Of a stretch of DNA of 47,732 nucleotides, positions 23,523 through 39,730 are shown in pieces. A program made the position numbers and the translations under genes. The notes under the pieces are model-generated. The model saw only the letters and a list, made by a program, of their open reading frames with translations, made no database searches and had not been told where the DNA came from. This DNA is from a virus. Its lineage: Duplodnaviria; Heunggongvirae; Uroviricota; Caudoviricetes. The stretch's first letter is position 1. Every line of letters starts with the position of its first letter. The stretch lies in IMG/VR virus record IMGVR_UViG_2562617057_000003. One strand, given 5' to 3'.

Positions 23523-25434
23523 TCACTCCTCCGGACAGCTTCGCTGCCAGTTCTTCAAGGGTCGGTTGTGCAGTTGCATCCTTGCGGGATGCCGCCAGCA
23601 CAGCCAGATCAAGTTGCCAGCGTTGCACGGACACACGTAATGCCGCATAGGCATACACCAGGCAGTCCAGCGCTTCGTTACGCCGCTTTTTGTTATCCCA
23701 CAACAGACGCATCTTTCCTTTTTCCCACTTTTCCACCAGTTCCTCCGCCACCAGTTGTTGTGCCTCTGTCTGCGAAAAAATCTCCGGATTATCAGGAAAG
23801 CGGATGGCATACGATGTGGCCTCATTCACAGGGGTGGGATCGGCCTTCATTCGGGCATAGAGAATTTCTTTTGCGGTATCCGTCCCCACCTCACACAGAT
23901 ACACACCCCGCTGATTGCGGGTTTTCGGCATGGTGATCACCGGCTTGCCATAGACAGAGGCACCTTTTACCGGCAGTACCCGGAAAACACCGTGTTTTTT
24001 TGACCTCTGATACACGATTTCGCCATCGATCCCCCCGATATCCCAGCAGACACGGGAAATGGTCATTTCGGTACCGTCTGCATGGCGGTATTTTTTATTG
24101 ATCGCCGCATCCACACGTAACAGCGTCTCTTCCTCATCAGGACGTCCCATGATGATGATTTTATCCACCAGAAAGGCTTCCTCTCCCGGAGCCCACCCCC
24201 AGACATACATCTCAAAACGGTTTCGCTGCGAGTCAATGCCCGCCGTCAGATAAACCACCCGGACAGGCACCGTTGCCGTGTAAGGCACAACCTTATCCAT
24301 CAGTACCTGGTGATCGAGTTTTTCGCCCACGGCCTCTTCCCAGGTCTCGCCCAGCGTGGTGTTCACAAAAGTTTTCACGCCGTTGGGATCTTTCAGTGCA
24401 TCCAGCCAGTCACAGACTATCTGTACCCAGGTGGTGAACGGACTGTACGCCGTCCATATATGGAAAGTGATGGAGCGCGGCGGCGGAATTTCATTACCCG
24501 AAGCACTGAAAAACGTCAGACCGTCACGCGTCCACATCCCGGTATTGTCACAAATCCAGCGCCCCCCGGTCTGATCAAGTTCAGACTGACGGATCACGCA
24601 GCCATTATGTTCACACAGGTAATACACCGTTTCCGGTTTACCCTTCTCCCATTTCAGGCCAAACGACGTCGCATCATCGCCAAACTTCAGATACTGCTCC
24701 TCCCCGCAATGAGGGCAAGGGACATAAAACCGCATGAAATGTGCAGATTCATTCGCGGCTTTTTCAATCTGGCAGGAGCCTTTGATTTTTGGCGTTGAAC
24801 CGCGTATGGATTTTGGCCATACCGAACCTTCAATACGTTTATCGCCAAGCAGTGTTGGCGAACCTTCTTTTTCCACATCCGGTTCAAACGAGGAGAGTTC
24901 GTCATAGCAGACCACATCGACAGATTTTTCACGGTAGTTTTTGGCAGCAGCACCACCCAAACACCAGAACCCCACACCAGAGGAAAAACGCTTCAGTGTG
25001 AGCGTATTATCCCGGTGTTTCCGGCCCAGCCAGGGAGAAAGTTTTTTCAGGCAAGGAACATCACGAATTGTTGCTTCCACGTGAGACTTCATAAAATCTT
25101 CAGCAGCTGAGTCCGTCGGCTGAAAAAGAAGAGTGTTGCGGGATTTGTGCTCAATAAAATACCCGATCACACCAAGCACCATTTTTGTATAACCAACACG
25201 GGCAGATTTAATCAGGTTAACTGTACGAATCTCGTCATTGCCCATGCAGTTCATGATGGCGACCTGAAACGGCAGCGTTTTCCATTCCCCCTCACCGTAT
25301 GACGATTCTTTAGGCAGGTAATAATTTTGATCGGCCCATTCTACAGCCGTCACCGGCAATACCCTGACCAGTGGCTGCAGTGCGATAGTGACTGCCACCA
25401 TCATATTACTCAGTTGTTGTTCTGATATATTCAT
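23506..25434 (-). CDS. A: Terminase large subunit A
   Basis: Starts MNISEQQLSNMM...TAVEWADQNYYLPKESSYGEGEWKTLPFQ (lambda A-like) at ATG 25434; overlaps the 3' end of Nu1 as in lambda; ORF-track start is an upstream extension. Confidence 0.93.
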   Translation of the reverse strand: MNISEQQLSNMMVAVTIALQPLVRVLPVTAVEWADQNYYLPKESSYGEGEWKTLPFQVAIMNCMGNDEIRTVNLIKSARVGYTKMVLGVIGYFIEHKSRNTLLFQPTDSAAEDFMKSHVEATIRDVPCLKKLSPWLGRKHRDNTLTLKRFSSGVGFWCLGGAAAKNYREKSVDVVCYDELSSFEPDVEKEGSPTLLGDKRIEGSVWPKSIRGSTPKIKGSCQIEKAANESAHFMRFYVPCPHCGEEQYLKFGDDATSFGLKWEKGKPETVYYLCEHNGCVIRQSELDQTGGRWICDNTGMWTRDGLTFFSASGNEIPPPRSITFHIWTAYSPFTTWVQIVCDWLDALKDPNGVKTFVNTTLGETWEEAVGEKLDHQVLMDKVVPYTATVPVRVVYLTAGIDSQRNRFEMYVWGWAPGEEAFLVDKIIIMGRPDEEETLLRVDAAINKKYRHADGTEMTISRVCWDIGGIDGEIVYQRSKKHGVFRVLPVKGASVYGKPVITMPKTRNQRGVYLCEVGTDTAKEILYARMKADPTPVNEATSYAIRFPDNPEIFSQTEAQQLVAEELVEKWEKGKMRLLWDNKKRRNEALDCLVYAYAALRVSVQRWQLDLAVLAASRKDATAQPTLEELAAKLSGGVNGYSR

Positions 25435-25915
25435 CGAGTAAATCCGGTAATTTATCCCCCGCACGCGCGCACTGATTCGCTCCCTTAGCAATAAGGATTT
25501 TCAGATGATCAATATGACGCGGCGTTAAATCCGGGAACTGTCGTTGCATGGACAAAGGAATGGAGTCAAGCGTACTGGATAAAGCCATCGCCAGCTTACT
25601 AAGGGCAAAAATACAAAATCCGCTATCAATAAGATTTCCTTTTGACACCTGATTTTTTAACTGCTGTGCGACAGCCTGTTCTGCGGTCAGTTCCCATCTC
25701 GCAATGAGTAGTTTCTCTTCATAATCCTCTTCCGGATCACCATCAGGCACATCGTTTTTACTTCTTCTCAGATACGATATGTAAAAATCACGCCAGGCAT
25801 CCAGATCCAGTTGTCCTCGCTTGTTCGAAACCGGGGCACCCGGCAGTTTCTGTAATCTGCGAAGCTGGCGATCGGTCAGACTCAAATGCCTGGCAACTTC
25901 AGTCTGAGTAGCCAC
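25406..25915 (-). CDS. Nu1: Terminase small subunit Nu1
   Basis: 169 aa with N-terminal HTH; C-terminal part resembles lambda Nu1; GTG start with RBS GAGGTG; immediately upstream of A. Confidence 0.82.
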   Translation of the reverse strand: MATQTEVARHLSLTDRQLRRLQKLPGAPVSNKRGQLDLDAWRDFYISYLRRSKNDVPDGDPEEDYEEKLLIARWELTAEQAVAQQLKNQVSKGNLIDSGFCIFALSKLAMALSSTLDSIPLSMQRQFPDLTPRHIDHLKILIAKGANQCARAGDKLPDLLDEYIRTTTE

Positions 25916-26039
25916 TGTTCACCTCGCCAAAAAATCTCCCCTCATGCGTTTTAAACATGCATCTTGCGAACAACTTTATGAAACGCGGCATATATGTCCG
26001 GTTTGAGTGTTCAATTTTTGCGCATGTCCGGTTCACAGA

Positions 26040-26165
26040 AAGCGCATTTCTATATTTTTCAAATGGTTAACCTTCAGAGAAACCGGACATGGTTTCCGAA
26101 AAATTTTCATAAATAGTGAAATTCTGCGCCGCTCCCGCCCCGTGGCAGGCCACCCCACCGGGAGG
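26040..26165 (-). other. cos site region (cosN-like GGGCGGGAGCGG, cosB toward Nu1)
   Basis: Reverse complement of 26100-26140 reads GGGCGGGAGCGGCGCAGAATTTCACTATTTATGAAAATTTT, close to the lambda left-end sequence; about 200 bp upstream of Nu1. Confidence 0.6.
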
Positions 26166-26564
26166 ACCCGTCAGCCTGACAGCCATGACGAACGTCTGAT
26201 ACAGCGCCCTGCATGAATGACATCGGGATAATCCAGAAAGGAATAGCATCGTACCCACAAGAATCAGTGTAAGTGTCCTGTTTCTTCCACCCCCGCACAG
26301 GACTGGCGAGCATGAGGGACAAACCCGCGAACCATAAACGCGGTAAAAACCCGGTGTGCATCGTTTTTGATTATTCCCGCACACTCGCGCAGAAGGAGTT
26401 CCCCGTCGGGCTACGGTCATGGTTAATGCGGGAATACAGCGACGATACAGCGCATGATGTGTCAGGCCTGAATACCTTTATCCGTTAAAAGGGATATCAG
26501 TTAAGTTATCCCGTGTAGGGTATAAGCCATTATCAAGCCCACCAGTAGATGGGCTTTGTAATGG

Positions 26565-26822
26565 CTACTTCGCTTTTGCTTCCGCTCGCTTACGCCGGCG
26601 CTCTTCTTTCCTCTCGGCTTTTGCCATGTCCATGAATGCCTGCATGATCGAGTTCCGCATCATGTAGCTAACAAAGTGATGATTGACACAGCCGTTGAGG
26701 CGCAGCTGCTCGCCAAACTCATCCACCGAGGCCAATGCTTCCATCATGCCCTTCTCGCCTTTCATGAACTCTGAGAAGTCGCGCCCCGCTCTGGAGGCGC
26801 ATTCAATGACACGATCACTCAT
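26565..26822 (-). CDS. Hypothetical 85-aa protein translationally coupled to the KilA-N gene
   Basis: ATG overlaps the stop of the upstream gene (ATGA); Lys/Arg/Glu-rich C-terminal tail; no family recognised. Confidence 0.55.
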   Translation of the reverse strand: MSDRVIECASRAGRDFSEFMKGEKGMMEALASVDEFGEQLRLNGCVNHHFVSYMMRNSIMQAFMDMAKAERKEERRRKRAEAKAK

Positions 26823-27316
26823 CCCGGAAGCCCGGGGATCGTTATCTGCAGCTGGTTAGCCAGGGAGTTAATCTCAGCGACCAACACTGGCTTCGTATAG
26901 CGCCATGCCGCCAGCCCTTGTCCACAGAAGCTCGCCATATCTTTTTTCTGATCAAACTCATGACACTTCATATTGAGCTGCGCACTTAAGCTGTTGCGAT
27001 GCTGAAGTTCTCCGGTGAAGTAGTCATCCAGGACTTTATAGGCTGCATATTTAAATCCGGGGTTTAGCCATGCTGCATAATCATAAGCAACAAACTTCCC
27101 GCCATATGTTCCACCGTGTACACCGCGCTCAGTAAAAACCACAGATTCGTGGTTTTTCTCCAGCTCGGCTAAGAACTCTTTGGTCTGCTTGTTTCGCAGG
27201 TAGTGGTACGGAGATTCAGATTCACTTTTACCACTGGCTTTCCACATATCAGTGAGGCAGATCATTCCTGATTCATCAACACGGATCGGTGTATTAAAAA
27301 GCGTGATTGCTTTCAT
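26819..27316 (-). CDS. KilA-N domain protein
   Basis: 165 aa; N-terminal MKAITLFNTPIRVDESGMICLTDMWKASGKS...YHYLRNKQTKEFLAEL resembles the KilA-N DNA-binding domain. Confidence 0.7.
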   Translation of the reverse strand: MKAITLFNTPIRVDESGMICLTDMWKASGKSESESPYHYLRNKQTKEFLAELEKNHESVVFTERGVHGGTYGGKFVAYDYAAWLNPGFKYAAYKVLDDYFTGELQHRNSLSAQLNMKCHEFDQKKDMASFCGQGLAAWRYTKPVLVAEINSLANQLQITIPGLPG

Positions 27317-27462
27317 GGCGTCTTTACCTTTTAGAAAGATGAGCCTGTTCGCACAGAAAAGCCGTCCCCGAGATGGTCGCCACCATATACGGCAATTCTC
27401 AGGCTCAGCTTTCTGAAAGACTCGGGGTTTATATGCGCTGCGATGCGCGGTTTACTGCGGAC

Positions 27463-27488
27463 ATATAAAAGCCCCGCAAGTGCGAGGC
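27463..27488 (-). terminator. Putative intrinsic terminator after Rz
   Basis: Minus-strand hairpin GCCTCGCACTTGCGGGGC followed by TTTTATAT, 33 nt after the Rz stop. Confidence 0.5.
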
Positions 27489-27520
27489 TCATTAAATGGA
27501 CTTTGTGATTTGCAAAAAAA

Positions 27521-27958
27521 TTATTTCAGGCATTGCGTCCTGATGTATTCCTGCAGGTAGTTAACCTGCGCGGTTATCCTGTCGATTCCACTTCGGAGAC
27601 GGTAATAATTGAGTTCAGCATCTGCTGTAAGTCTTGGGCTTTCTCCATAGCCCATGCTGCTGGCTCCGGTCGTTGACTTTGCACAGGTGGCGGCGACTTG
27701 CAGGCGCTTACGACCAGCAGAAACATCAGCACGGAGACTTTCGATAGTCGCGTTAGCATCAGCAAGCTCCTTTGTGTATCTGGCGTCGAGTTCTGCTACA
27801 TCACGTTGACGCTTCTGCATATCAGAGATGATGGATGTGGCCTTATCGCGCTGCTCTTTGTAGGTAATGGCGTTACTACGGTAATGGCTGGTGGCCTGCC
27901 ACAACGCACCGCAGGCCACCAGCAACGCAATAATCACGCCATGAAGAACACGATTCAT
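27521..27958 (-). CDS. Rz: Rz inner-membrane spanin
   Basis: [40 protein letters not shown]... lambda Rz-like with N-terminal TM segment; ATG at 27958. Confidence 0.88.
27574..27765 (-). CDS. Rz1: Rz1 outer-membrane lipoprotein spanin, embedded in Rz in the +1 frame
   Basis: 63 aa with lipoprotein signal and lipobox (LLVVSAC), Pro-rich mature part; nested inside Rz. Confidence 0.8.
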
Positions 27959-28172
27959 ATCACCACCAGCGGATTGCCCAGACCAGAACAGCAATGGACA
28001 CAATACGAATAGCAAAGGCCGCTGCTCTTGTTAAATCCAGACTGGCTGGAGTCTCCACTTCAATGCCTTTCATAATGGACAACCTCAGAAAAAATTTTTT
28101 ATACTTTCTCACAGGGAAAACACCTCCCTACCCATAATTTCTCCCTTGCCTTACTCAAGGTCAGAAAACACA

Positions 28173-28210
28173 AAACCCCGACTGTTGGTGCAATCGGGGT
28201 TTTTACTTTT
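28173..28210 (-). terminator. Strong hairpin with flanking T tracts between endolysin and Rz
   Basis: 8-bp stem AAACCCCG/CGGGGTTT with a 14-nt loop, followed by TTTTACTTTT on plus and TGTGTTTTC on minus. Confidence 0.45.
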
Positions 28211-28293
28211 ATTCACTTACGTTTTGCCGGTTAGCAGGATTTCGTGTTATCCGCCCGCGTTGACCAACCTCATTTTTCAGCGAAATATTCTGC

Positions 28294-28827
28294 TTATCTG
28301 TCGATACCCCAGCATGTCAGCGCCGCTTCCTGATCCCGACGAATAACCTGACCGTAACAGTTATTTGAACGAATACGGCAGTCTCTGCCACCATCCTTAA
28401 TCCACCAGCGAATCGCCTCGCATGCGCCCTTACGATCACCGGCATTCAGCCGCTTATAAAACGTCGACGGGAAACACTTACCGGGGCCAATGTTATAGGG
28501 GCAAAATGACGCTATACCCGCTTTTTGTGGTTCGGTCAGTGGTACTTTAATATTGCGCTCCACCCATGCCAGCGCCTTATCACGTTCAATGGCGTTAACC
28601 TGGTCGCATTTTTCCTTCGACAGTTTCATACCGGGAAAAACGGGTTTACCATCCACCGTCGTGGCACCCCGACAGATGGTCCAGATGCCGGAACCATCGC
28701 GGTATGCCGTAGTGTGGTTACCTTCTTTTTCATCCAGAAACTGGTCGAGAATATCAGGCGCAGGCGCACCGATAGCAATCAGTGCCAGAACGGCAGCCGA
28801 CAGGCCATATCTGATTTTTACGTTCAT
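28294..28827 (-). CDS. R: Phage lysozyme (endolysin) with N-terminal signal-anchor/SAR-like segment
   Basis: 177 aa; MNVKIRYGLSAAVLALIAIGAPAPD hydrophobic N-terminus, then ...EGNHTTAYRDGSGIWTICRGATTVDGK... lysozyme motifs; resembles K-12 prophage lysozymes. Confidence 0.92.
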   Translation of the reverse strand: MNVKIRYGLSAAVLALIAIGAPAPDILDQFLDEKEGNHTTAYRDGSGIWTICRGATTVDGKPVFPGMKLSKEKCDQVNAIERDKALAWVERNIKVPLTEPQKAGIASFCPYNIGPGKCFPSTFYKRLNAGDRKGACEAIRWWIKDGGRDCRIRSNNCYGQVIRRDQEAALTCWGIDR

Positions 28828-31591: not shown

Positions 31592-32152
31592 TTAAAGCCG
31601 CATCAACCGCTCCACCAGTTGCTCTTTACGGGCAACGATCCACCCGTGTTGCTCCAGATAAAATTTAAACCGTTCCAGAGTGCATACCATCACATCGGCA
31701 GGTACTTTTTCCGTGAAGTCGACCTGACCGTGTTTATCGAAGTGGATCAGTAATGCGCATCCATCATTTTCGATAGATGTGTTTTGTGCCGCTGGTGGTT
31801 GTTTTTGGTTGAAATAACAGTCTTCCAGTTTTTCGAATACTTCCCACGCCTGATCGGTTTCGAGCATTTTGGCGTGACGGGCTGCTCCGCGTTCTGTCCA
31901 GAGTATGAGCTTTCGGACATTTGGGGCGATCGTTTGAAAATCCCTTAAAGAGATTTTCAAATTTTGGAGGTCTGCGCCTTTCGCAATTATGTAGTGCTTC
32001 CCTTCTGCAAATCGCTCTTTATTACGGTGGTGATTTCTATGAATACACTCGACGCTACAGCCATATAGTTTGGCCAGTAACTCTGTAGTGACAACTGGGA
32101 GCTGGTTGTGTGTGATCGGGGAAAGAGTTTCGACAGAAACTTGAGTCGTCAT
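31592..32152 (-). CDS. Antirepressor-like protein (ORF6N-type N-terminal domain, Ant-type C-terminal domain)
   Basis: 186 aa; C-terminal ...ALLIHFDKHGQVDFTEKVPADVMVCTLERFKFYLEQHGW is paralogous to the C-terminus of the antirepressor at 42835-43392. Confidence 0.7.
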   Translation of the reverse strand: MTTQVSVETLSPITHNQLPVVTTELLAKLYGCSVECIHRNHHRNKERFAEGKHYIIAKGADLQNLKISLRDFQTIAPNVRKLILWTERGAARHAKMLETDQAWEVFEKLEDCYFNQKQPPAAQNTSIENDGCALLIHFDKHGQVDFTEKVPADVMVCTLERFKFYLEQHGWIVARKEQLVERLMRL

Positions 32153-32311
32153 GATAACGCCCTCTGGTTGATGGATTTAACTATCACCACCGTCAGGTTC
32201 CAATCATTGGGTGGTGAGACGTACAGGGTTGGAACTACCGGATCAACCAACCGGCGAGCCTTTCAGCTCCCCCATACGCCCCACCATTATTCAGATGTGC
32301 GTGTGCTTACG

Positions 32312-32338
32312 ACAATAAAAAACACGCTCGCGGCGTGT
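32312..32338 (-). terminator. tR'-like intrinsic terminator about 80 nt downstream of the late promoter
   Basis: Minus strand ACACGCCGCGAGCGTGT (6-bp stem) followed by TTTTTTATT. Confidence 0.6.
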
Positions 32339-32400
32339 GTCTGTCGCGGTTGAATATCCGGGGTTCCAATCCCGACGCCAGATTTTGCTGACGCGCGAGG

Positions 32401-32430
32401 AATATAGCCCCGGACAATGTATATGGTCAA
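32401..32430 (-). promoter_or_regulatory. Candidate late promoter pR' just downstream of Q
   Basis: Minus strand TTGACC - 18 nt - TATATT, starting 5 nt after the Q stop. Confidence 0.5.
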
Positions 32431-39448: not shown

Positions 39449-39730
39449 TCAACCTCCATCAGCCTTTTTGGTGTTAAGTTCATATTTGTGACGTGAAGGA
39501 GACGTGATTCCAGTGTATTCGGGCCATATAAGATCCCAGTCATTAGGTCTCAATTCTCGTCTTGTAACATGTCCTCCAGTTTCTGCTTCTATCATCAACG
39601 CACGAACAGGAGACACAGGTGAAGTTCCAGATGCCATTTGGGACAAGAAAGACGGAGACACACCAAGATTGGTCGCAAATTTTTTTGCTTCTCCAGTTTT
39701 TAATGATTTGATGAATTCCTTTAGCGTCAT
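39449..39730 (-). CDS. Cro-like / YdaS-like HTH regulator
   Basis: 93 aa, HTH KFATNLGVSPSFLSQMASGT; first gene of the rightward operon, divergent from the repressor. Confidence 0.72.
   Translation of the reverse strand: MTLKEFIKSLKTGEAKKFATNLGVSPSFLSQMASGTSPVSPVRALMIEAETGGHVTRRELRPNDWDLIWPEYTGITSPSRHKYELNTKKADGG

What the first reader, a model, noticed from the sequence alone, without database searches (positions are those of the whole stretch)
26565..27505. KilA-N domain gene plus coupled 85-aa gene in the post-Rz (bor) moron position
Between the lysis cassette and cos, lambda carries the bor moron. Here that slot holds a 165-aa KilA-N protein and an ATGA-coupled 85-aa basic-tailed protein, preceded by a terminator-like hairpin after Rz. 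KilA-N domains occur in antirepressors and some abortive-infection proteins, so this pair could be a regulatory or exclusion module expressed from the lysogen.
Basis: partly seen in the sequence, partly recalled or inferred. Interest (0 to 1): 0.45.

Follow-up and report, generated by a model that had tools for sequence, protein, structure and literature searches.

The report
Rha-slot KilA-N gene pair with leader
The two genes are real but ordinary: a common, uncharacterised accessory pair of lambda-like and P22-like phages that sits in the late operon where P22 carries rha, and the more interesting feature is a conserved folded RNA leader in front of it that is predicted to hide the ribosome-binding site.

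Summary
On the minus strand, after Rz/Rz1 and a terminator hairpin, lie a 165-aa KilA-N + ORF11CD3 protein (27316-26819) and an ATGA-overlapped 85-aa helical protein with a basic tail (26822-26565).

Both proteins are 100% identical to HK620 hkbK/hkbL and occur in Stx phages and many prophages, always as a pair and with mosaic flanks.

The "bor-like moron expressed from the lysogen" reading is not supported:
- The genes are co-oriented with the late operon, between pR' and the terminase genes.
- No sigma-70-like promoter is found upstream.
- The slot is the one that holds rha in P22. P22 Rha shares the ORF11CD3 C-domain and the same upstream leader.

That roughly 115-nt leader is a long hairpin plus a pseudoknot-type pairing, and it shows strong covariation. 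It precedes Rha, KilA-N, Ant or T5orf172 genes in 118 of 120 sampled viral contigs. It is predicted to bury the Shine-Dalgarno sequence and matches no Rfam family.

The 85-aa partner belongs to a very narrow family. Its fold also occurs as the N-domain of T5orf172 proteins in the same slot.

Function remains unproven. The best guess is a late-expressed, translationally throttled DNA-binding regulator with a cofactor, analogous to Rha.

The parts
27465..27490 (-). Intrinsic-terminator-like hairpin after Rz: GAGCCTCGC-ACTT-GCGGGGCTT, followed by TTATAT.
   Evidence: Found by the scan. The position is conserved, with at least 4 different stem sequences, in related loci. The equivalent element is annotated as a terminator in HK639, epsilon34 and mEpX1.
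27435..27458 (-). Conserved spacer motif GCAGTAAAC plus a small G+C-rich inverted repeat (GCGCA-N5-6-(U)GCGC). Its role is unknown.
   Evidence: Present in all leader variants aligned. Symmetric changes occur on both arms: TGTGCA...TGCACA in L105 and L106, TGCGT...ACGCA in the majority variant.
27317..27430 (-). Structured 5' leader of the KilA-N mRNA.
- P1 5' strand: CCCCGAG, 27427-27421.
- Long interrupted hairpin: 27420-27333.
- P1 3' strand: CUCGGGG, 27372-27366, inside the apical loop.
- Shine-Dalgarno sequence: AAAAGG, 27332-27327.
   Evidence: - Covariance model R1 scores the window at 118 bits.
- 95.8% of cells are paired and 19 of 22 pairs show compensatory changes, against 31-55% paired when the partners are slid.
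- P1 complementarity is kept by at least 10 different sequence pairs at a fixed position.
- The minimum free energy is -40.1 kcal/mol, and the base of the stem engages the ribosome-binding region.
- No Rfam match.
26819..27316 (-). 165-aa protein: a KilA-N N-domain (DNA-binding-type fold) plus an ORF11CD3 C-domain modelled as one roughly 70-residue helix. Identical to HK620 hkbK.
   Evidence: - Pfam domains.
- 100% identity to HK620 hkbK.
- AlphaFold2 model: pLDDT 84.9, helix 86-156.
- Weak fold matches to Mbp1/APSES and to the DdrC N-domain.
- pN/pS 0.078.
26565..26822 (-). 85-aa partner (HK620 hkbL type, phrog_875): a three-helix protein with a basic C-terminal tail, start codon overlapping the upstream stop (ATGA).
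   Evidence: - Family assignment and conservation.
- AlphaFold2 model: pLDDT 92.4, helices 3-20, 26-42 and 48-84.
- No Pfam, NCBIfam or PDB relative.
- Only 20 cluster representatives among 1.84 billion proteins.
- The N-domain is homologous to the N-domain of T5orf172 proteins.
26535..26556 (.). Hairpin (AAGCCCA-N8-TGGGCTT) 9 nt after the partner's stop codon, lying between it and a convergent plus-strand ORF. It may be a weak two-way terminator.
   Evidence: Read from the sequence. It does not pass the T-run criterion of the terminator scan on either strand.

Best explanation
This is the accessory cassette that occupies the "rha slot" of lambdoid and P22-like late operons.

Gene 1 is a Bro-network protein. 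It has a KilA-N DNA-binding-type N-domain and the ORF11CD3 C-domain that P22 Rha and the Stx-phage Ant/Rha proteins also carry. Gene 2 is a small helical protein with a basic tail. It is translationally coupled to gene 1 and is never found without it in the loci examined.

Proposed mechanism:
1. Q-modified RNA polymerase from pR' reads through the post-Rz terminator. This is inferred from the architecture.
2. The roughly 115-nt leader folds into a long hairpin, clamped or alternated by a 6-8-bp pairing between its 5' flank and its apical loop. The base of this hairpin sequesters the Shine-Dalgarno region. Little protein is therefore made unless the fold is opened or cleaved. The structure is shown by covariation; the effect on translation is predicted.
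3. Ribosomes that finish gene 1 restart at the ATGA junction, so the two proteins are made together (inferred).
4. The KilA-N domain binds DNA. The long ORF11CD3 helix oligomerises or binds the partner's long helix, and the partner's basic tail adds nucleic-acid contacts (inferred).

The product is a dispensable late-phase regulator aimed at the host or at competing elements, functionally analogous to Rha. Rha is reported to harm phage growth when its control by IHF is lost.
For: Shown here:
- Domains and coupling.
- The partner always follows the KilA-N-ORF11CD3 gene, with overlap, in 83 of 83 loci retrieved with the partner as query. Flanks are mosaic: Rz identity ranges from 44 to 97%, and there are three or more terminase types.
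- The pair occurs in both cos and pac phages: HK620, Stx phages 1717 and 2851, PhiR49_1 and Dewey.
- No minus-strand promoter was found.
- The leader structure has compensatory changes.
- The Shine-Dalgarno sequence has a mean unpaired probability of 0.16 across 22 leader variants.
- The same leader precedes P22 rha (111 bits), HK639 rha, the Stx-phage P22_AR_N Ant and Rha genes, and epsilon34 gp68.
- In 118 of 120 sampled viral contigs carrying the leader core, an ORF starts 21-23 nt after the stem. These ORFs are Rha (81), KilA-N (18), partner-like + T5orf172 (12), ANT (3) or without a Pfam match (4).
- P22 Rha is Phage_pRha + ORF11CD3, and its C-domain aligns with the window protein at E = 1e-8.
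- The KilA-N model resembles APSES and winged DNA-binding domains, though weakly.

From the literature:
- P22 rha (orf201) is a late-operon gene that is detrimental to lytic growth without IHF (statement in PMC4936722, citing Henthorn & Friedman 1995; I could not read the original).
Against: - No expression, binding or phenotype data exist for this pair. I found no paper on hkbK/hkbL or on ORF11CD3 function.
- Absence of a consensus sigma-70 promoter does not exclude a weak or activator-dependent one. The conserved GCAGTAAAC motif and inverted repeat upstream of the leader remain unexplained and could be an operator or promoter.
- Occlusion of the Shine-Dalgarno sequence is a thermodynamic prediction only.
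- The covariation statistics come from an alignment fitted to the model. A plain MAFFT alignment of the 19 most diverse leaders gave RNAalifold no consensus at all.
- Interaction between the partner and ORF11CD3 is untested. KilA-N-ORF11CD3 relatives exist without the partner: Silvania, Cronobacter and phiEt88.
Confidence: 0.55

Rival explanations
1. One reading: a moron-like module expressed from the prophage that excludes or aborts infection by other phages. KilA-N would act as the DNA sensor, as in BstA, and the partner as modulator or effector.
For: - KilA-N domains occur in the BstA abortive-infection proteins (PMC8585504, listed).
- The PADLOC candidate family PDC-S22 gives a partial hit: E = 6.8e-9, residues 60-90 only.
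- The cassette is bracketed by hairpins and moves between unrelated phage backbones at 93-100% identity.
- The partner-like fold is fused to a GIY-YIG-type T5orf172 domain in related slots.
Against: - No promoter was detected, and the orientation is the same as the late operon.
- The ribosome-binding site is predicted to be buried.
- The architecture is 165 aa with ORF11CD3, not the longer BstA type, and the location is not beside the repressor.
- The slot and leader are shared with Rha and Ant regulators.
- The PADLOC match covers only about 30 residues of the shared domain.
Confidence: 0.15
2. A kil/antidote-type pair. The KilA-N protein would be toxic to the host, like P1 KilA, or to phage development, like Rha. 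The coupled 85-aa protein would neutralise or tune it, and the leader would keep expression minimal.
For: - Strict downstream coupling of the partner, which is never found alone.
- A strongly structured, repressive leader.
- Rha is reported to be detrimental to phage growth when deregulated.
- The name KilA derives from host killing by P1 KilA (own knowledge).
Against: - Close KilA-N-ORF11CD3 homologues persist without the partner: Silvania at 88% identity, Cronobacter and phiEt88.
- The same leader controls many different proteins, so it is not specific to a toxin.
- There are no toxicity data.
Confidence: 0.12
3. A DNA-packaging or lysis helper specific to the neighbouring terminase or spanin genes.
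For: - The location is immediately between Rz and the small terminase gene, close to the expected packaging site.
- HNH packaging helpers are known to occupy this region in some phages (own knowledge), and Dewey carries an HNH gene here.
Against: - The nearly identical pair (93-100%) sits next to Nu1-type, P22 gp3-type and other terminases, and next to Rz proteins of 44-97% identity.
- The slot is interchangeable with Rha, Ant and T5orf172 genes.
- One homologue sits in a tail-gene region.
Confidence: 0.05

Closest known systems
P22 / phi80 Rha (P22 orf201), the late-operon 'rha' gene
   Same: - Same position: after Rz/Rz1 and before the small terminase gene.
- Same orientation.
- Same upstream terminator and structured leader (R1 scores 111 bits in P22).
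- Same ORF11CD3 C-terminal domain.
   Different: - The N-domain is KilA-N instead of Phage_pRha.
- P22 has no 85-aa partner downstream.
- The Rha phenotype (inhibition of growth in IHF-deficient hosts) has not been tested for this protein.
HK620 hkbK / hkbL, and the 'kilA' gene plus neighbour of Stx2c phages 2851 and 1717
   Same: The HK620 proteins are identical in sequence (100% over 165 aa and 85 aa), with the same coupling and the same slot.
   Different: Nothing at the protein level. In those records the genes are annotated only as unknown or KilA-like. The backbone here is a cos phage with a Nu1-type terminase, whereas HK620 is P22-like.
Bro/KilA-N domain-shuffling network (Bro-N, KilA-N, Rha, P22_AR_N, ANT, ORF11CD3, T5orf172)
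   Same: - Two-module architecture with swappable N- and C-domains.
- Relatives keep one half and exchange the other. Proteins in the same slot combine these modules.
- The list of network domains is given in PMC10111431.
   Different: The 85-aa partner fold (phrog_875) is not a named member of that network. Here it is shown to be the N-module of T5orf172 proteins (phrog_4284, epsilon34 gp68) and also to exist as a stand-alone gene.
Lambda bor-type morons
   Same: The region between Rz and the packaging genes tolerates inserted DNA.
   Different: bor is separately promoted and expressed in lysogens (own knowledge). This pair is co-oriented with the late operon and no promoter was detected. The convergent plus-strand ORF at 26273-26488 fits the bor-like geometry better.
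BstA abortive-infection proteins
   Same: They have an N-terminal KilA-N domain.
   Different: The length, the C-terminal domain and the genomic position all differ. The only link found is a roughly 30-residue hit to a PADLOC candidate family.

Membership tests
Pfam KilA-N (PF04383) | Profile match above the gathering score | tested here: met
   58.5 bits against a cutoff of 23.8, residues 7-101.
Pfam ORF11CD3 (PF10549) | Profile match above the gathering score | tested here: met
   50.5 bits against a cutoff of 25, residues 109-161.
Rha-slot late-operon gene (P22 rha type) | Lies between Rz/Rz1 and the small terminase gene, on the late strand | tested here: met
   Gene order.
Rha-slot late-operon gene (P22 rha type) | Shares the upstream terminator and the structured leader | tested here: met
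   Model R1 scores 118 bits in the window and 111 bits in P22.
Rha-slot late-operon gene (P22 rha type) | Phage_pRha N-terminal domain | tested here: not met
   The window protein has KilA-N instead. P22 Rha has Phage_pRha.
Rha-slot late-operon gene (P22 rha type) | Product inhibits phage growth in IHF-deficient hosts | not testable with these tools
   Phenotype is reported only for phi80 and P22 Rha (cited in PMC4936722).
Moron (independently expressed insert) | Own promoter upstream of the gene | tested here: not met
   No minus-strand sigma-70-like site in 25300-28300. This is a consensus scan only, so weak or activated promoters are not excluded.
Moron (independently expressed insert) | Own terminator downstream | tested here: inconclusive
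   There is a hairpin at 26535-26556, but it has no T-run that passes the scan.
Moron (independently expressed insert) | Expressed from the repressed prophage | not testable with these tools
   Needs RNA-seq or reporter data.
BstA-type abortive infection | KilA-N domain plus the BstA C-terminal region, encoded next to the immunity region | tested here: not met
   The C-domain is ORF11CD3 and the gene is in the late operon. The PADLOC hit is limited to residues 60-90.
ANT/KilAC antirepressor | ANT (PF03374) C-terminal domain | tested here: not met
   The window protein has no ANT hit. ANT proteins do occur in the same slot in other phages.
Any Rfam RNA family (for the leader) | Covariance-model match | tested here: not met
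   No hit at E <= 1 over the leader in the window, or at E <= 5 in P22. None either in an Stx phage, epsilon34, phiEt88 or the Salmonella contig.

The most novel reading that the evidence does not exclude
The leader in front of this gene is an undescribed, widespread cis-regulatory RNA of enterobacterial temperate phages. It combines a long hairpin with a pseudoknot or alternative pairing and gates translation of whichever Bro-network gene (Rha, KilA-N, Ant, T5orf172) sits behind it in the late operon. It could be the physical basis of the old observation that rha expression depends on a host factor. The 85-aa protein would then be a new stand-alone module of the same network that works with ORF11CD3-type proteins.
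Probability: 0.4. Interest if true: 0.6.

Novelty: new member of a known kind. Interest (0 to 1): 0.35.

Why it matters
The gene pair itself adds little. Identical copies have been in GenBank since HK620 was sequenced, and it belongs to the well-known, poorly understood Bro/KilA-N family of phage accessory regulators.

Three things are useful:
1. It should not be counted as a lysogenic-conversion or defence moron without expression data.
2. The 85-aa orphan can now be tied to the Bro network through its fusion to T5orf172 domains.
3. A conserved, covarying RNA leader marks a whole class of late-operon accessory genes, including P22 rha and the Ant/Rha genes of Shiga-toxin phages. This gives a concrete, testable handle on how these potentially harmful proteins are kept in check, and it suggests that the annotated start codons of P22 and HK639 rha are wrong.

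Tried and rejected
- **Sigma-70 promoter between Rz and the KilA-N gene:** none found on the coding strand.
- **Rfam:** nothing matches the leader in five different variants.
- **Hammerhead or other self-cleaving ribozyme:** considered after PMC3088659. There is no Rfam ribozyme hit, and the core CUGAGAA / UUGAGGA does not fit CUGANGA with a C3-G8 pair.
- **Known prophage sRNAs AgvB/AsxR:** these lie 3' of pR', not here.
- **Solved structures:** no sequence relative for either protein. Foldseek gives only generic helical bundles for the partner and weak APSES/DdrC matches for KilA-N.
- **Defence families:** only a partial, domain-level hit.
- **NCBIfam:** nothing.
- **Lambda cosN sequence:** not present.
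- **The 53-aa ORF 27492-27331 running through the leader:** found in only 3 of 83 loci, so it is not a gene.
- **RNAalifold on a plain MAFFT alignment of 19 diverse leaders:** returned no structure, because the variants were misaligned. Structure-guided alignment was needed.
- **Universal linkage of the partner with KilA-N-ORF11CD3:** rejected. Distant and some close homologues lack it.
- **IHF and LexA sites in the leader:** looked for by eye only. No convincing consensus was seen, and this was not tested systematically.
- **Henthorn & Friedman 1995:** could not be read.
- **Literature on hkbK, PhiR49 or ORF11CD3 function:** nothing found.

Full report
**What is there**

The window is a lambdoid prophage with its late genes on the minus strand. 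Reading that strand, the order is as follows:
- Q (32830-32435)
- a DNA methyltransferase
- an S21-type holin
- a DUF1327 gene
- a lysozyme
- Rz (28015-27521), with an embedded Rz1-like ORF
- a terminator-like hairpin (27490-27465)
- the 165-aa gene (27316-26819)
- the 85-aa gene (26822-26565)
- about 650 bp holding a convergent small ORF
- a Nu1-type small terminase (25915-25406) and the large terminase

The 165-aa protein has a KilA-N domain (residues 7-101) and an ORF11CD3 domain (residues 109-161), both well above Pfam's cutoffs. The two genes overlap by ATGA. The 85-aa protein ends in KAERKEERRRKRAEAKAK.

**How common it is**

Both proteins are 100% identical to HK620 hkbK and hkbL. The 1.2-kb region matches 290 phage records, 25 of them over at least 80% of its length. 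These include Stx2 phages 1717 and 2851, PhiR49_1 (where the gene is annotated "KilA-N-ORF11CD3"), ECP1 and Dewey. It also matches 362 complete E. coli genomes over at least 80% of its length.

I retrieved 83 loci using the 85-aa protein as query. In every one, the KilA-N-ORF11CD3 gene sits immediately upstream and overlaps it. The flanking Rz, lysozyme and terminase genes are mosaic: Rz identity ranges from 44 to 97%, and both Nu1-type and unrelated terminases occur. The ATGA junction is invariant in all 27 distinct DNA versions, and pN/pS for the KilA-N gene is 0.078. These are real genes that move as one unit.

**The partner**

The partner has no Pfam, NCBIfam or PDB relative. It belongs to PHROG 875, function unknown. 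A profile search of 1.84 billion cluster representatives found only 20 relatives, nearly all of them enterobacterial. AlphaFold2 gives a confident three-helix model (pLDDT 92.4) with a long C-terminal helix. Foldseek finds only generic helical bundles.

The informative result comes from the distant relatives:
- P0189 and P0191 carry the same fold at their N-terminus, fused to a T5orf172/MUG113 (GIY-YIG-like) domain. P0189 hits both phrog_4284 and phrog_875.
- Epsilon34 gp68 has the same architecture (28% identity over 67 residues, E = 3e-11) and sits in the same post-Rz slot.
- P0189 lies next to a KilA-N + P63C gene in an Oceanisphaera prophage.

The orphan is therefore a stand-alone copy of a module from the Bro/KilA-N domain-shuffling network.

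The linkage runs one way only. The partner is never seen without the KilA-N-ORF11CD3 gene. KilA-N-ORF11CD3 homologues, however, do exist without it: Silvania (88% identical, in a tail region), Cronobacter and phiEt88. KilA-N proteins with a different C-domain also lack it. A Salmonella Kottbus contig keeps only the first 14 codons of the partner, behind a protein with the same ORF11CD3 domain.

**The KilA-N protein**

The model (pLDDT 84.9) has a mixed alpha/beta N-domain. Its best, though weak, fold matches are the Mbp1 APSES DNA-binding domain and the DdrC and Bqt4 N-domains. This fits the published KilA-N/APSES relationship (own knowledge). Residues 86-156 form a single long helix in the model, which is the shape expected for an oligomerisation or partner-binding element.

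Relatives swap halves. Some keep the ORF11CD3 half almost unchanged behind a divergent KilA-N domain. Others keep the KilA-N half with a different C-terminus.

**Which slot this is**

Aligning the roughly 200 nt between Rz and the start codon across loci showed several diverged versions with one layout:
- a terminator hairpin
- a short motif plus a small G+C-rich inverted repeat
- a roughly 115-nt element

A BLAST search with this spacer found it in 219 phage records. Many of these have a different gene behind it: rha in HK639, a Rha-like regulator in an Stx phage, a Phage_pRha gene in Hafnia phage yong1, and gp68 in epsilon34. P22 has it in front of rha.

P22 Rha, read from the ATG at 39644, is Phage_pRha + ORF11CD3. 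Its C-domain aligns with the window protein at E = 1e-8. The window gene is therefore a domain-swapped occupant of the rha slot.

According to PMC4936722, which cites Henthorn & Friedman 1995, P22 rha (orf201) is a late-operon gene that is detrimental to lytic growth when IHF is absent. I could not read the original paper.

**The leader RNA**

RNAalifold on eight leaders predicted a long interrupted hairpin, with 8 of 22 pairs changed on both sides. 96.6% of cells were paired, against 36-64% when the partners were slid.

A covariance model built from these eight sequences found the element in more than 30 loci. It occurs twice in an Stx phage, before Ant and before Rha. It occurs four times in one Salmonella contig, each time before a Bro-network gene.

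On the resulting alignment, 95.8% of cells pair and 19 of 22 pairs show compensatory changes, against 31-55% and 2-7 pairs in the slid controls. That alignment is fitted to the model, so it leans towards the structure. A plain MAFFT alignment of the 19 most diverse leaders was too misaligned for RNAalifold to find anything. G-U pairs favour the sense strand, that is, the mRNA.

A second interaction (P1) joins 6-8 nt just 5' of the hairpin to the 3' end of its apical loop. At least ten different sequence pairs keep this complementarity at the same position, for example CCCGAG/CUCGGG, CACCGA/UCGGUG, CAUCGA/UCGAUG, CACAGA/UCUGUG and CCAAGA/UCUUGG. Cognate pairs average 6.8 nt of complementarity and non-cognate pairs 4.8 nt. 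I could not decide whether P1 coexists with the hairpin as a pseudoknot or alternates with it. Forcing P1 in a nested fold gives -30 kcal/mol, against -40 kcal/mol for the hairpin.

In all 22 variants the minimum-energy fold extends to the ribosome-binding region, and the Shine-Dalgarno sequence has a mean unpaired probability of 0.16.

In 118 of them an ORF of at least 60 codons starts 21-23 nt after the stem. By class these ORFs are:
- Rha + ORF11CD3: 40
- Rha: 35
- long Rha: 6
- KilA-N: 15
- KilA-N + ORF11CD3: 3
- partner-like + T5orf172: 12
- ANT: 3
- no Pfam match: 4

No Rfam family matches the element in any variant tested.

**Expression**

No minus-strand sigma-70-like promoter was found anywhere in 25300-28300. 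The three plus-strand hits equal the chance expectation. The pair lies between pR'/Q and the head genes and is co-oriented with them, so the late transcript has to cross it. This is an inference from the architecture.

The terminator after Rz would stop unmodified polymerase but not Q-modified polymerase (established for lambdoid late operons; own knowledge). The sequence evidence therefore points to late expression with translational throttling, not to independent expression in the lysogen. The conserved motif and inverted repeat at 27458-27435 remain unexplained, so a non-consensus promoter or an operator there cannot be excluded.

**Function**

Nothing experimental is known for this pair. 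My best-supported model has two parts. First, the gene 1 product is a DNA-binding regulator of the Rha/Ant kind, made late and in small amounts. Second, its long ORF11CD3 helix pairs or oligomerises, and the coupled 85-aa helical, basic-tailed protein serves as its cofactor.

The rivals are a lysogen-expressed exclusion module, a kil/antidote pair and a packaging helper. Each has some support but less:
- The defence link is a roughly 30-residue domain hit.
- The antidote idea conflicts with close homologues that lack the partner.
- The packaging idea conflicts with the identical pair sitting beside unrelated terminases.

**Verdict**

The gene pair is a catalogued, uncharacterised member of a known family. 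The finding of greater interest is the covarying leader RNA shared with P22 rha and the Stx-phage Ant/Rha genes, which appears not to be described in Rfam.

Noticed in passing
window 32207-32407 (-) and 31592-32152 (-): Rfam isrK (75.6 bits), C4 antisense RNA (71.8 bits) and c4-a1b1 (49.3 bits) lie directly downstream of Q. They are followed by an ORF6N antirepressor-like gene (phrog_2379). This is a separate antisense-RNA-controlled antirepressor module of the P1/P7 immI or Gifsy isrK type, so the prophage already has a conventional antirepressor unit.
   Followed up: partly
window 26273-26488 (+): A small ORF (71 aa from a GTG start, 58 aa from the first ATG) converges on the 85-aa gene. It is conserved at 58-100% identity at the same relative place in about 50 of 83 loci, and it has no family hit. 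Its opposite-strand geometry fits the bor-like moron position better than the KilA-N pair does.
   Followed up: partly
L114 (P22, NC_002371) 39575-39646; L110 (HK639) 1621-1659: The annotated GTG starts of P22 rha and HK639 rha lie inside the leader hairpin. The ATG 21-23 nt after the stem (39644 in P22), which has a Shine-Dalgarno sequence, is the likely true start. Read from that ATG, the P22 protein still contains complete Phage_pRha and ORF11CD3 domains.
   Followed up: partly
L003 (phage Dewey) 2082-2756: An HNH endonuclease gene sits between the full leader and the KilA-N gene. Only a remnant of the leader's 3' end remains in front of KilA-N, so the space behind the leader is itself an insertion point.
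   Followed up: no
L099 (Salmonella Kottbus contig) 450-3756: There are four copies of the leader in 3.3 kb. Each precedes a different Bro-network gene: KilA-N+ORF11CD3, P22_AR_N+ORF11CD3, KilA-N+ORF11CD3 and KilA-N. An STnc100 sRNA match lies just upstream, at 126-345.
   Followed up: no
window 27435-27458 (-): The motif GCAGTAAAC and a small inverted repeat (GCGCA..GCGC) lie between the terminator and the leader. Both are conserved across variants, and the repeat changes symmetrically on its two arms. It could be an RNA hairpin, an operator or part of a non-consensus promoter.
   Followed up: partly
window 27331-27492 (-): A 53-aa ORF starts inside the terminator hairpin and runs through the leader. 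It is found in only 3 of 83 related loci and has no family hit, so it is very probably not a gene.
   Followed up: yes
E. coli genomes H31-H39 (for example NZ_CP075640.1): In several STEC genomes the matched region is split by an insertion of about 600 bp annotated as a Gp49 family protein. This is another sign that the region is an insertion hot spot.
   Followed up: no
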